Shown: positions 48,314 to 49,200 of the stretch, in pieces
Layout: every line of letters starts with the position of its first letter
Position numbering within the stretch: the stretch's first letter is position 1
Origin: an uncultured Pseudomonadota bacterium
GTDB taxonomy: Bacteria; Pseudomonadota; Alphaproteobacteria; RF32; CAG-239
Direction: 5' to 3'
NCBI GenBank assembly: GCA_949295085.1
Contig: CASFJS010000001.1
Span: 9,121-73,120 of the forward strand
DNA length: 64,000 nucleotides
Made by a program: the position numbers and the translations under genes
Notes under the pieces: generated by a model
Databases searched by the model: none
What the model was told of the DNA's origin: nothing
Seen by the model: only the letters and a program-made list of their open reading frames with translations

Positions 48314-48496
48314 AAAACTTTCAATTGCATAACAAAAATTCGTTTAGCCTAATATCAGCCAACTAAAATAAATCACAAGACTAAATTTACTACCGCAAAT
48401 CAATATACTAATACATTTATCTAAATGTGAAAAGTAGCCATATTTACAATTTGTGTCAAGAGTTTTGCATTTTCATATATCAATTAAATTCACCAT

Positions 48497-48613
48497 GGTC
48501 GGGGAGCTTTTGGCGTATGTTCAGAAGTTTTTTGACTTTAAAGGCTAAGAGAATCATTTAAGCATATATGATTGATGAACTCTCCGACCACCTTGAAAAA
48601 GGTGGCTTTTGTT
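48497..48613 (+). ncRNA. candidate structured RNA / cis-regulatory leader with an intrinsic terminator (class not recognised)
   Basis: A 10-bp closing helix pairs ggtcggggag (48497-48506) with ctctccgacc (48580-48589). An internal hairpin pairs aatcat with atgatt (48552-48573). The terminator ccacc-ttgaaaaa-ggtgg-cttttgtt (48588-48613) follows. The element ends 27 nt before ATG 48640. Confidence 0.3.
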
Positions 48614-48639
48614 AATCACAAAAAAGGGAGTTATATCAT

Positions 48640-48924
48640 ATGAAAAAATTAATATTAGTATTAATGACAGCAACAATGCTATCTGGCTGCTCATCAATTG
48701 TCAAAGGCAGCAGACAAACCATTAACATTTCAACCAGCACGGGCAAACAAGCTGATGCAGTCATAACAACATCGGAAGGGCAACAAAATATTACCCTGCC
48801 GCGCTCTGTTTCCGTAAAGACAACAAGCGGAGATATCGTGGTTGATGTAAAAGAAACTCGTTGTAACACATCTTCATCAACGGTTATTCCAACTACAATC
48901 ACGCTGAACATTCAAGCAGCCTGA
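48640..48924 (+). CDS. small lipoprotein (94 aa)
   Basis: GGGAG RBS, signal peptide with lipobox MLSGC, and a Ser/Thr-rich beta-type sequence. Confidence 0.6.
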   Translation: MKKLILVLMTATMLSGCSSIVKGSRQTINISTSTGKQADAVITTSEGQQNITLPRSVSVKTTSGDIVVDVKETRCNTSSSTVIPTTITLNIQAA

Positions 48925-48976
48925 TAACCGGTCTATCTTTACATTTTTAAGGAATATTCGGAATTCTTTGTTTATA

Positions 48977-48994
48977 TGGTCGGGACTATTGGAT
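48977..48994 (-). repeat. 18-nt perfect direct repeat of the tRNA-Pro 3' end (att-like scar)
   Basis: tggtcgggactattggat is identical to 49124-49141, which covers CCA, the discriminator, the acceptor 3' strand and the T-stem 3' strand. Confidence 0.8.
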
Positions 48995-49074
48995 GACTTC
49001 GTTCACGGCGCTCATTCGCTTGTCGCTCATCGGCGTACTCTCGTCCGCCTTTCGCTTGTAGTCAAACCAACGCC

Positions 49075-49097
49075 TCGTTGGTTCGCATCCAATAGTT
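49075..49097 (+). repeat. inverted partial copy of the tRNA-Pro T-arm
   Basis: tcgttggttcgcatccaatagt matches the sense tRNA sequence tcgttggttcgaatccaatagt at all but one position, in the opposite orientation. It also sits in the palindrome aaccaacg-cct-cgttggtt. Confidence 0.7.
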
Positions 49098-49123
49098 TCA
49101 AAATTTTTCCTCAGTTCAAAATC

Positions 49124-49200
49124 TGGTCGGGACTATTGGATTCGAACCAACGACATCTTGCTCCCAAAGCAAGCGCTCTACCAGGCTGAGCTAAGTCCCG
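49124..49200 (-). tRNA. tRNA-Pro (anticodon UGG), CCA encoded
   Basis: The reverse complement folds as a cloverleaf: CGGGACT/AGTCCCG acceptor, GCTC/GAGC D-stem, CTTGC-TTTGGGA-GCAAG anticodon arm (TGG), GTTGG-TTCGAAT-CCAAT T-arm, then A-CCA. Confidence 0.95.

What the first reader, a model, noticed from the sequence alone, without database searches (positions are those of the whole stretch)
48977..49200. tRNA-Pro(UGG) followed by two fragments of itself: an 18-nt direct repeat and an inverted T-arm copy
A perfect 18-nt copy of the tRNA 3' end (CCA, discriminator, acceptor 3' strand and T-stem 3' strand) lies 129 nt beyond the tRNA 3' end, at 48977-48994 versus 49124-49141. It is in the same orientation, which is the classic attL/attR signature of tRNA-targeting integrases. 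A 22-nt near-identical copy of the T-arm sits between the two in the opposite orientation (49075-49097). It lies inside the palindrome aaccaacg-cct-cgttggtt. The octamer tggtcggg also recurs at 48496. The bracketed 129 nt is far too short for an element. These look like scars of repeated integration, excision or inversion at this tRNA, or a tRNA-derived miniature element.
Basis: seen in the sequence. Interest (0 to 1): 0.6.

Follow-up and report, generated by a model that had tools for sequence, protein, structure and literature searches.

The report
tRNA-linked repeat (TLR/RtT-type) behind tRNA-Pro
The two "fragments" of tRNA-Pro are the arms of one copy of a tRNA-linked repeat, a small folded non-coding module known since 1978 behind E. 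coli tRNA genes and still without a known function; it is not the scar of an integrating element.

Summary
tRNA-Pro(UGG) lies at 49124-49200 on the minus strand. An exact 18-nt copy of its 3' end lies at 48977-48994, and a 21/22 inverted T-arm copy at 49075-49096.

These are not separate scars. They are the arms of one ~120-nt element (48977-49096, minus strand). In tRNA sense it reads:
- antisense T-arm
- 3-nt loop
- T-stem 5' strand plus UUUGA (this copy's form of the tRNA's UUCGA)
- a 67-nt GC-rich core
- the tRNA's last 18 nt, ending in CCA.

A covariance model of the element finds 418 copies in 51 of 56 genomes of this gut alphaproteobacterial genus. They sit 11-45 nt behind at least 21 kinds of tRNA gene and are often tandem. 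In 49 of 78 copies the last 19 nt exactly equal those of the tRNA just upstream.

This is the defining mark of E. coli tRNA-linked repeats (TLRs; Rfam RtT, RF00391), and the E. coli tyrT repeats have the same anatomy. Matches between the two models run both ways but stay below Rfam's cut-off (20.4 against 45 bits).

Base-pair covariation, and wobble pairs that exist only on the tRNA-sense strand, point to a structured RNA in the tRNA's 3' trailer. I found nothing pointing to an integrase. This is a new member of a known but poorly understood kind. How the copies arise is unknown.

The parts
49124..49200 (-). tRNA-Pro(UGG) gene with encoded CCA. It is the only tRNA in the window.
   Evidence: ARAGORN; Rfam RF00005 at 68.3 bits.
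49097..49123 (-). 27-nt spacer between the tRNA's CCA and the element. No terminator-like hairpin is predicted here, so read-through from the tRNA is likely (inferred).
   Evidence: Sequence. The terminator scan finds nothing on the minus strand between 48550 and 49330.
48977..49096 (-). The tRNA-linked repeat (TLR) proper, 120 nt. In tRNA sense: antisense arm, loop, sense T-stem 5' strand, core, copy of the tRNA 3' end.
   Evidence: My model R1 matches 48977-49105 (C1:58097-58225) at 127.6 bits, E 3e-28. RF00391 RtT matches 48977-49109 full length at 20.4 bits. The 147 nt from 49123 to 48977 fold at -45.7 kcal/mol, z -4.1.
49075..49096 (-). Antisense arm. On the minus strand it reads ACTATTGGATGCGAACCAACGA, the complement of tRNA positions about 48-69 (T-arm plus 3 nt of the acceptor strand) with one mismatch.
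   Evidence: I1 (22 nt, 95%).
49063..49085 (-). Hairpin P2: CGAACCAACG / AGG loop / CGTTGGTTTG. It is 10 bp on the tRNA-sense strand, including one G.U pair, and only 8 bp on the opposite strand.
   Evidence: Sequence. Family-wide the pairs are 95.9% formed, and the two outer pairs are mostly U.G or G.U.
48985..48995 (-). 3' strand of closing helix P1 (CATCCAATAGT). It pairs with 49086-49096 (ACTATTGGATG) for 11 bp and leaves CCCGACCA (48977-48984) as a 3' tail.
   Evidence: I10 (11 nt, 100% complementary). Helix 1 is 90.7% paired, and all 6 pairs show changes on both sides.
48996..49062 (-). 67-nt GC-rich core, inserted at tRNA T-loop position 57/58 of the sense copy. It contains hairpin P3 (49032-49049, GGCGGAC-GAGA-GTACGCC) and helix Pa (GCGAA 49051-49055 with TGAGC 49010-49014, two tandem G.A pairs). 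Hairpin P4 is degenerate in this copy (49015-49031). This copy carries the short version of the 3' module (GTGAACGAAGT).
   Evidence: Alignments. P3 covaries: GC/CG 26:10 and 27:10, AU/GC 23:12. Pa varies between GCGAA/UGAGC, GGACU/AGUCC and GCAAU/AUUGC.
48977..48994 (-). Exact 18-nt direct copy of the tRNA's 3' end (positions 59-76: AT, T-stem 3' strand, acceptor 3' strand, discriminator, CCA). This is the TLR hallmark.
   Evidence: In the family, 49 of 78 copies share exactly 19 nt with the upstream tRNA and 4 share 18.

Best explanation
The stretch 48977-49096 (minus strand) is one copy of a tRNA-linked repeat. TLRs are a class first seen behind E. coli tyrT in 1978 and catalogued by Rudd in 1999; Rfam models them as RtT (RF00391).

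A TLR is a gene-less module of 120-150 nt that sits in the 3' trailer of a stable-RNA gene. It ends with the last 18-19 nt of that gene's own RNA.

Shown here:
- The module has a fixed anatomy: antisense copy of the local tRNA's T-arm and 3' strand, short loop, sense T-stem 5' strand through T-loop position 57/58, a conserved core of about 65-85 nt, then the tRNA's positions 58/59-76.
- The arms always match the local tRNA.
- The core helices covary.
- Cores are shared between loci. They are up to 98.8% identical behind different tRNAs of one genome.

Inferred:
- It is transcribed with tRNA-Pro, because no terminator lies between them.
- The RNA folds into a long P1-P2 helix built from the tRNA-derived arms, with the core as a multi-helix branch.
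- It is released as an RNA of about 147 nt (49123 to 48977). Its 3' end is made by the same nucleases that finish the tRNA, because it carries the same 3' sequence. This parallels E. coli RttR and RrB.
- Arrays grow and shrink by unequal exchange between the direct repeats of the tRNA end (often including the terminator).
- Cores are homogenised between loci by gene conversion.

The cellular role of the RNA, and the way a new copy first forms at a new tRNA, are unknown here as they are in E. coli.
For: Hallmark: the 18/18 direct copy of the tRNA 3' end.

Family:
- R1 finds 418 matches in 51 of 56 genomes of the genus, many at a tandem spacing of about 170-185 nt.
- Of 78 copies with a tRNA in the fetched flank, 49 share exactly 19 nt with that tRNA's 3' end.
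- At least 21 tRNA species are involved, including a tRNA-Gly whose odd T-loop (TCCGA) is copied into both arms.

Same anatomy in E. coli:
- The tyrT/tyrV units read GGGGAAGGATGAGAAGCTTC-GACC-AAGGTTCGA-core-GAGT-AATCCTTCCCCCACCACCA.
- RefSeq annotates ncRNA rttR as running from 7 nt after tyrV to that CCA.

Cross-matches:
- R1 hits all four E. coli tyrT units full length, E 1.4e-5 to 1.2e-3 in 2.2 kb.
- RF00391 hits the window's copy full length at 20.4 bits and relatives at up to 32.2 bits.
- In K-12 itself RF00391 matches range from 137.5 down to 18.8 bits. The five below the cut-off lie in stable-RNA gene regions, some directly beside units that pass it.

Shared motifs:
- The variant behind the same tRNA-Pro(UGG) gene of G015 shares 30/33 nt of non-tRNA core with the E. 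coli lysT TLR.
- Core ends GGTTCGACT.C.AGCGAA and GCG.AGCGC.GAGTAATCC are common to both.

Literature: TLRs number 22 in ten K-12 loci. The 18-19-bp 3' identity is 'a hallmark of all members'. No function is known, and the rrn-linked ones are transcribed by read-through and processed (PMC8144298).

RNA-type structure:
- 94.2% of cells are paired against 79.1% in shuffles, and 17 of 24 pairs show double changes.
- The U.G and G.U pairs in P2 exist only on the tRNA-sense strand.
- Tandem G.A pairs alternate with Watson-Crick pairs in Pa.
- No terminator is predicted between the tRNA and the element.
Against: - Rfam's own membership threshold is not met (20.4 against 45 bits). Part of every cross-score comes from the tRNA-like arms, which any tRNA-derived sequence would share.
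- Transcription and processing could not be tested.
- This copy is a weak family member. Hairpin P4 is degenerate, the 3' module is the short form, and position 58 is C instead of A, so it may be decaying.
- The covariation counts were made on alignments fitted to the model, and P1/P2 'covariation' follows automatically from both arms copying the same tRNA.
- Gene conversion explains shared cores. It does not explain how all three tRNA-specific arms arise at a new tRNA.
Confidence: 0.72

Rival explanations
1. It is a non-autonomous mobile DNA element. Either the ~82-nt core or the whole unit inserts at T-loop position 57/58 of tRNA genes while supplying a replacement 3' end. It would be moved in trans by an enzyme encoded elsewhere, or through a folded single-strand hairpin that mimics the duplex target, as with integron attC or CTX-phage attP.
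For: - The element is present or absent behind tRNA-Pro(UGG), with the downstream RNHCP gene as a shared landmark in several genomes: none in G018, one in G000 and G004, two in G011.
- Arrays are tandem.
- Cores are 98.8% identical behind tRNA-Met and tRNA-Lys of one genome, with sharp boundaries exactly at ...TTCGA|core|AATCC....
- Cores cluster by genome as well as by tRNA: 47 label changes against 61-67 in shuffles.
- The distribution is patchy. R1 hits only the own family plus two other lineages among 251 alphaproteobacterial genomes, yet one variant is 30/33 identical to an E. coli TLR.
Against: - No protein gene travels with the element in any locus I read.
- All three arms are locus-specific, so a moving unit would need to be re-templated at each new tRNA.
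- E. coli TLRs also follow 5S rRNA genes and copy the last 18 bp of 5S (PMC8144298). A T-loop-specific recombination does not explain this.
- The wobble and tandem G.A pairs are RNA-type features and are strand-specific.
- Shared cores with non-homologous arms are what gene conversion between dispersed repeats would also give.
Confidence: 0.2
2. It is what the first reader proposed: leftover attL/attR sites from repeated integration and excision of tyrosine-integrase elements at tRNA-Pro, with the intervening 129 nt a remnant of the element.
For: A direct repeat running from the T-loop to the 3' end of a tRNA gene is what an integrase crossing over in the T-loop leaves (established knowledge; Williams 2002, from memory). 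Real islands at tRNA genes exist in this genus.
Against: - The intervening sequence is a conserved structured family found at at least 21 tRNA species in 51 of 56 genomes.
- The only three tyrosine recombinases of the genome are on other contigs: C8, C10 and C32.
- The bona fide island scars seen here are ~45-nt halves running from the anticodon loop to CCA, kilobases away. A TLR sits behind the displaced half as it does behind an intact tRNA.
- The inverted arm has no place in an att scar.
Confidence: 0.03
3. It is a neutral by-product. TLRs would be junk duplications of tRNA 3' ends and trailers that persist and spread by recombination, with no RNA function. On this view the window's copy is a decaying relic.
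For: - Deleting or studying the tyrT TLR gave no phenotype of its own in E. coli; the 1991 claim was retracted (PMC8144298).
- This copy has a degenerate P4 and a shortened 3' module.
- The second copy in the genome (contig C20, behind tRNA-Met) is truncated.
- Five genomes of the genus have no copy at all.
Against: - Compensatory changes keep P3, P4 and Pa paired across subfamilies.
- The same core-end motifs are kept between Alpha- and Gammaproteobacteria.
- The architecture is kept with at least three unrelated core types within the genus.
Confidence: 0.12

Closest known systems
E. coli tRNA-linked repeats (TLRs): the tyrT/tyrV 178-bp repeats and the RttR (RtT) RNA, Rfam RF00391 (Egan & Landy 1978; Bosl & Kersten 1991; Rudd 1999; cited through PMC8144298)
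   Same: - It lies directly behind a tRNA gene on the same strand.
- Its last 18-19 nt are identical to the tRNA's 3' end, and the break falls at T-loop position 57/58.
- An antisense T-arm copy lies upstream, with a GC-rich core between.
- Units are tandem with a period of about 170-185 nt.
- Core-end motifs are shared.
- Covariance-model hits run both ways.
   Different: - The score is below Rfam's gathering threshold (20.4 bits; best relative 32.2).
- The middle of the core differs (P3, P4 and Pa here).
- The host is an uncultured gut alphaproteobacterium with a 1.5-Mb genome.
- In this genus the family reaches at least 21 tRNA species and up to 23 copies per genome, against 22 copies in ten loci in a 4.6-Mb E. 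coli genome.
rrA/rrB/rrF, the TLRs behind 5S rRNA in E. coli rrnA/B/D (PMC8144298)
   Same: - The module sits between two terminators at the end of a stable-RNA operon. Most relatives here show tRNA-terminator-TLR-terminator.
- It ends with the last 18 nt of the upstream RNA.
- The authors propose that the repeat recruits the same 3' processing.
   Different: - Those follow 5S rRNA, bind Hfq and CsrA through GGA motifs, and are the only TLRs with any assigned activity.
- The window's copy has no terminator before it.
att sites of tRNA-integrating islands and prophages, and cis-mobilisable integrase-less derivatives (CIMEs)
   Same: There is a direct repeat of the tRNA 3' part starting inside a loop of the tRNA, and the tRNA gene is kept intact.
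   Different: - There is no integrase and no cargo.
- There is an additional inverted arm.
- A conserved structured core recurs at many different tRNAs.
- Real island scars in this genus start in the anticodon loop.
Folded single-strand recombination sites (integron attC, CTX-phage attP)
   Same: Two inverted copies of the target sequence can fold into a hairpin that re-creates the duplex target, with extra-helical material at the crossover point.
   Different: - This is an analogy of shape only.
- No recombinase or single-stranded intermediate is known.
- The strand-specific G.U and G.A pairs fit RNA better.
3' external transcribed spacer RNAs such as 3'ETS-leuZ
   Same: It is a non-coding RNA released from the trailer of a tRNA precursor by normal tRNA processing.
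   Different: 3'ETS-leuZ is a short unstructured sponge, with no copy of the tRNA end and no repeat family.

Membership tests
tRNA-linked repeats (TLR; Rudd 1999, as described in PMC8144298) | Lies immediately downstream of a tRNA or rRNA gene, in the same orientation | tested here: met
   The element starts 27 nt after the CCA of tRNA-Pro on the same strand. In the family, first units start 11-45 nt after a tRNA.
tRNA-linked repeats (TLR; Rudd 1999, as described in PMC8144298) | The last 18-19 bp are identical to the 3' end of the upstream stable-RNA gene | tested here: met
   18/18 identity, 48977-48994 = 49124-49141. Of 78 family copies, 49 share exactly 19 nt and 4 share 18.
tRNA-linked repeats (TLR; Rudd 1999, as described in PMC8144298) | Sequence and architecture related to the E. 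coli TLRs | tested here: met
   The order of parts and the T-loop break are the same as in the tyrT units. R1 hits four E. coli units, E 1e-5 to 1e-3. Shared core-end motifs, and a 30/33 match for a variant in the same genus. This rests on my comparison, not on a curated threshold.
tRNA-linked repeats (TLR; Rudd 1999, as described in PMC8144298) | One to five copies per locus, often tandem | tested here: met
   There is a single copy here. Relatives have tandem pairs and triplets, for example G014 C3 x3, G011 C4 x2 and G056 C5 x2.
tRNA-linked repeats (TLR; Rudd 1999, as described in PMC8144298) | Transcribed with the upstream gene and processed to a discrete RNA | not testable with these tools
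The only support is indirect: no terminator lies between the tRNA and the element.
Rfam RF00391 (RtT RNA) | Bit score at or above the curated gathering score of 45 | tested here: not met
   20.4 bits, full-length match at 48977-49109 on the minus strand. The best in the genus is 32.2 bits and none reaches the cut-off. Five of 18 RF00391 matches in E. coli K-12 also fall below 45, at 18.8-36.1 bits.
attL/attR pair of a tyrosine-integrase element | The direct repeats bracket an element that encodes, or once encoded, an integrase. The bracketed DNA is specific to that element. | tested here: not met
   The bracketed 129 nt is a member of a conserved non-coding family. No PF00589 match lies on contig C1.
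Miniature inverted-repeat transposable element (MITE) | Family-wide conserved terminal inverted repeats, fixed-length target duplication, and a related autonomous IS | tested here: not met
   The inverted arms differ at every tRNA because they copy the local tRNA. The direct repeat varies from 18 to about 77 nt. No coding partner was seen in any locus read, but the search was not exhaustive.
Small self-cleaving ribozymes (hammerhead and others) | A match to a curated ribozyme model | tested here: not met
   The CUGAUGAG...GAAA strings in some copies raised the idea. No ribozyme family appears at E up to 10 on the window copy or on 16 related loci. CUGA is base-paired inside P4.

The most novel reading that the evidence does not exclude
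TLR-type modules may be a very widespread, self-propagating kind of element. A small mobile core would be installed behind any stable-RNA gene by a process that copies the last ~28 nt of the host RNA in both orientations around it. Earlier notes of this scan describe the same anatomy in candidate-phyla-radiation (CPR) bacteria and other phyla. The fixed 18-19-nt boundary at position 58/59 is the same length as a retroviral primer-binding site. Together with the occurrence behind 5S rRNA, this would fit a mechanism that reads the mature RNA 3' end rather than the DNA. That would be a new mode of target-templated mobility that needs no element-encoded protein.
Probability: 0.12. Interest if true: 0.8.

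Novelty: new member of a known kind. Interest (0 to 1): 0.4.

Why it matters
TLRs have been in the E. coli literature since 1978 with no function and no known origin. They are modelled in Rfam only from enterobacterial sequences.

This genus of small-genome gut Alphaproteobacteria carries several hundred copies behind most kinds of tRNA. That gives a much richer comparative set than E. coli:
- It yields a consensus fold with covarying helices.
- It fixes the junction at T-loop position 57/58.
- It shows that the core, not the arms, is what is shared between loci.

It also supplies a name and a literature anchor for the many 'undescribed tRNA-trailing elements' that earlier reports of this scan flagged in CPR bacteria. 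For annotation, such repeats should not be read as integrase att sites or used to call genomic islands. They often lie at contig ends, so they probably break short-read assemblies.

Tried and rejected
- **Integrase scar.** Rejected; see the rival explanations.
- **Second tRNA, pseudo-tRNA or tmRNA piece.** ARAGORN and Rfam find only tRNA-Pro.
- **Hammerhead or other ribozyme.** No Rfam support, and the CUGA string is base-paired.
- **Coding reading.** The 73-aa plus-strand ORF 48968-49189 runs antisense through the tRNA and the repeat arms. I dismissed it without further test.
- **The octamer at 48496 as a third att copy.** It lies inside a separate ~115-nt repeat family.
- **The 660 nt with the lipoprotein gene (48315-48973) as cargo between two tRNA-end copies.** This DNA is absent in the closest relative G004. 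I found no second TLR or tRNA-end copy longer than 8 nt on its far side.
- **Literature.** 'RtT', 'rttR', 'RF00391' and 'tRNA-linked repeat' gave only one substantive open paper (PMC8144298). Bosl & Kersten 1991 is not held, either by PubMed id or as PMC329039.
- **Core phylogeny.** It is poorly resolved (81 columns, 88 rows), so I use it only for the label-change counts.

Full report
**1. The observation**

ARAGORN finds one tRNA in the window, tRNA-Pro(UGG), at 49124-49200 on the minus strand with an encoded CCA. Rfam's tRNA model scores it 68.3 bits.

The 18-mer TGGTCGGGACTATTGGAT occurs exactly twice, at 48977-48994 and 49124-49141. About 0.01 matches are expected by chance. The inverted T-arm copy is 49075-49096, 22 nt with 21 complementary (I1). 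It sits in the palindrome aaccaacg-cct-cgttggtt.

A further perfect 11-bp inverted pair joins 48985-48995 to 49086-49096 (I10).

**2. The pieces belong to one element**

Read in the sense of the tRNA (minus strand, 49096 down to 48977), the sequence is:

- ACTATTGGATGCGAACCAACGA, the antisense of the tRNA's T-arm plus 3 nt of the acceptor strand
- AGG, a loop
- CGTTGGTTTGA, the T-stem 5' strand and the T-loop through position 57/58
- a 67-nt GC-rich core
- ATCCAATAGTCCCGACCA, tRNA positions 59-76.

So the sense copy of the tRNA's 3' part is split in its T-loop by the core. The antisense arm pairs with both halves: P2 is 10 bp and P1 is 11 bp.

The 147 nt after the tRNA fold at -45.7 kcal/mol on this strand (z = -4.1) and at -39.5 kcal/mol on the other (z = -3.1).

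**3. It is a family**

A DNA search in relatives showed that the middle of the 129 nt is repeated many times in genomes of the same genus. The same layout follows tRNA-Arg(UCU) and tRNA-Pro in other species, with arms that match the local tRNA.

I built covariance model R1 from 12 copies. Its results:

- It finds 418 matches in 51 of 56 genomes of the genus, up to 23 per genome, many at tandem spacing of about 170-185 nt.
- In 78 copies with a tRNA in the fetched flank, first units start 11-45 nt after the tRNA. Forty-nine share exactly 19 nt with its 3' end, four share 18, and most of the rest differ by point changes.
- At least 21 tRNA species are involved: Arg x4, Pro x3, Met, Ser x3, Gln x2, Val x2, Lys x2, Trp, Gly and His.
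- A tRNA-Gly with an unusual T-loop (TCCGA) has that oddity copied into both arms.

Two copies with no complete tRNA within the flank I read sit behind displaced 3' halves of tRNA-Arg and tRNA-Lys. These halves run from the anticodon loop to CCA. In G002 the intact tRNA-Lys lies 5.7 kb upstream. That is what a true integrase scar looks like in this genus, and the small element simply follows the displaced tRNA end.

The window's own genome has only one other copy, truncated, behind a tRNA-Met on contig C20.

**4. Identity**

A permissive Rfam scan of 16 related loci put RF00391 (RtT RNA) full length on four of the elements, at 22-25 bits. On the window's copy it scores 20.4 bits, full length, at 48977-49109 on the minus strand. 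The best in the genus is 32.2 bits, and none reaches the 45-bit cut-off.

I fetched the E. coli K-12 tyrT-tyrV region and read it. Each unit is GGGGAAGGATGAGAAGCTTC (imperfect antisense of the tRNA-Tyr T-arm), GACC, AAGGTTCGA, a GC-rich core, GAGT, then AATCCTTCCCCCACCACCA (the last 19 nt of tRNA-Tyr). The order of parts and the T-loop break are the same as here.

Further links:

- R1 hits all four E. coli units full length, E 1.4e-5 to 1.2e-3.
- In K-12 itself RF00391 finds 18 matches scoring 137.5 down to 18.8 bits, five of them below the cut-off. They lie behind tyrT/V, proK, the lysT-valT cluster, serX and the argQZYV genes, with one more in a stable-RNA gene region.
- The variant behind the same tRNA-Pro(UGG) gene of G015 shares 30 of 33 non-tRNA bases with the E. 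coli lysT unit. The core ends (GGTTCGACT.C.AGCGAA and GCG.AGCGC.GAGTAATCC) are common to both groups.

The literature gives the class a name: tRNA-linked repeats (TLRs). They were first described by Egan and Landy in 1978. Rudd (1999) counted 22 in ten K-12 loci. [quoted passage not shown] They have no known function. The starvation phenotype once ascribed to the tyrT RNA was retracted. The three copies behind 5S rRNA are transcribed by read-through, processed, and bind Hfq and CsrA in vitro (PMC8144298).

The open library holds nothing on TLRs outside Enterobacterales.

**5. RNA or DNA?**

On 38 distinct copies, 94.2% of cells in the model's 24 pairs are paired, against 79.1% in shuffles and 25-40% with slid partners. 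Seventeen pairs show changes on both sides.

P1 and P2 covary trivially, because both arms copy the same tRNA. The core helices are independent of the tRNA:

- P3 switches GC/CG at two positions (26:10 and 27:10) and AU/GC at a third (23:12).
- P4 also covaries.
- Helix Pa encloses P3 and P4. In most copies it is GCGAA/UGAGC, which holds two tandem G.A pairs. In two other subtypes it is the Watson-Crick GGACU/AGUCC or GCAAU/AUUGC.

The two outer pairs of P2 are U.G (27 of 38) and G.U (12 of 38) on the tRNA-sense strand. They would be mismatches on the other strand.

No terminator is predicted between the tRNA and the element. Together this favours a structured RNA read from the tRNA strand. 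The pair counts come from alignments fitted to the model and lean toward it.

**6. Dynamics**

Behind tRNA-Pro(UGG), with the downstream RNHCP gene as a shared landmark, G018 has no element. G000 and G004 have one, G011 has two, and G015 has a different subtype.

The ~82-nt cores behind tRNA-Met and tRNA-Lys of G055 are 98.8% identical while the arms are wholly different. The boundaries fall exactly at ...TTCGA|core|AATCC....

Mean core identity is:

| Comparison | Mean identity |
|---|---|
| Same genome, different tRNA | 0.64 |
| Different genome, same tRNA | 0.61 |
| Different genome, different tRNA | 0.59 |

On a poorly resolved tree, both genome and tRNA labels change less often than shuffled labels: 47 against 61-67, and 47 against 57-61.

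The direct repeat often runs on through the tRNA's terminator, to about 60-77 nt. That gives enough homology for unequal exchange. Several core types coexist in the genus with the same architecture.

I read this as arrays that expand and contract by recombination, with cores homogenised by gene conversion. How the three arms are first made at a new tRNA is not explained by anything I found. E. coli TLRs also follow 5S rRNA with an 18-bp copy of its end. That argues against a T-loop-specific recombinase. [quoted passage not shown]

**7. Distribution**

Among 251 genomes drawn across the class, R1 hits only the window's family and two other lineages. In those the last 19 nt again match the upstream tRNA-Arg or tRNA-Thr. 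Of 14 control genomes, RF00391 rings only in E. coli.

Earlier AI notes of this scan describe the same anatomy in CPR bacteria and elsewhere as 'undescribed'. I did not test those. The TLR link is a lead for them.

**8. Verdict**

The integrase-scar reading is not supported. The element is a divergent member of the TLR/RtT class, so it is a new member of a known kind. Its function and origin remain open, as they do in E. coli.

Noticed in passing
window 48495-48613: This is a different dispersed element of about 115 nt: a 10-bp helix ggtcggggag/ctctccgacc followed by a terminator, just upstream of the lipoprotein gene. It recurs in 51 of 56 genomes of the genus, several copies each, and once more in this genome at C4:40777-40875. 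It has no Rfam match.
   Followed up: partly
window 48315-48973: These ~660 nt, holding the 94-aa lipoprotein gene and the element above, are absent in the closest relative G004. There the TLR is followed after about 40 nt by the RNHCP gene. This looks like a small gene gain or loss right behind the TLR.
   Followed up: partly
L055 (G002:C13:44000-63900) and L054 (G069:C40:16000-35900): These are classic island scars. A displaced 3' half of tRNA-Lys(CUU), from the anticodon loop to CCA, lies 5.7 kb downstream of the intact gene. A displaced 3' half of tRNA-Arg(UCU) has no intact gene within 18 kb upstream. Each is followed by its own TLR.
   Followed up: partly
whole assembly G000: No tRNA-Arg(UCU) gene is found in the 37 contigs, although in most relatives it directly follows tRNA-Pro(UGG). 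Trp, Ile, Ala(UGC) and Gln(UUG) are also missing. Many TLR hits in relatives lie within 300 nt of contig ends, so TLR arrays probably break short-read assemblies and hide tRNA genes.
   Followed up: partly
L012 (G015:C23), about 30-190 nt after tRNA-Pro(UGG): This is a TLR of another subtype. Its arms do not match the adjacent tRNA (3' end AATCATGTCGCCCCGACCA). Its core tail is 30/33 identical to that of the E. coli lysT TLR. Possible explanations are transfer between gut bacteria or a strongly constrained motif.
   Followed up: partly
G000 contig C11:28973-29300: ARAGORN finds a two-piece (permuted) tmRNA gene with tag ANDNNVAPVAIAA, as expected for an alphaproteobacterium.
   Followed up: no
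L156-L159 (G013, G016, G014): A third core type (CAAGGAGGAGCAGGCGAGACGGAAGTATCGCCGC...) has the same arm architecture. It sits behind tRNA-Gln and an initiator-type tRNA-Met (acceptor CGCGGGG...CAACCA). The architecture is conserved across unrelated cores.
   Followed up: no
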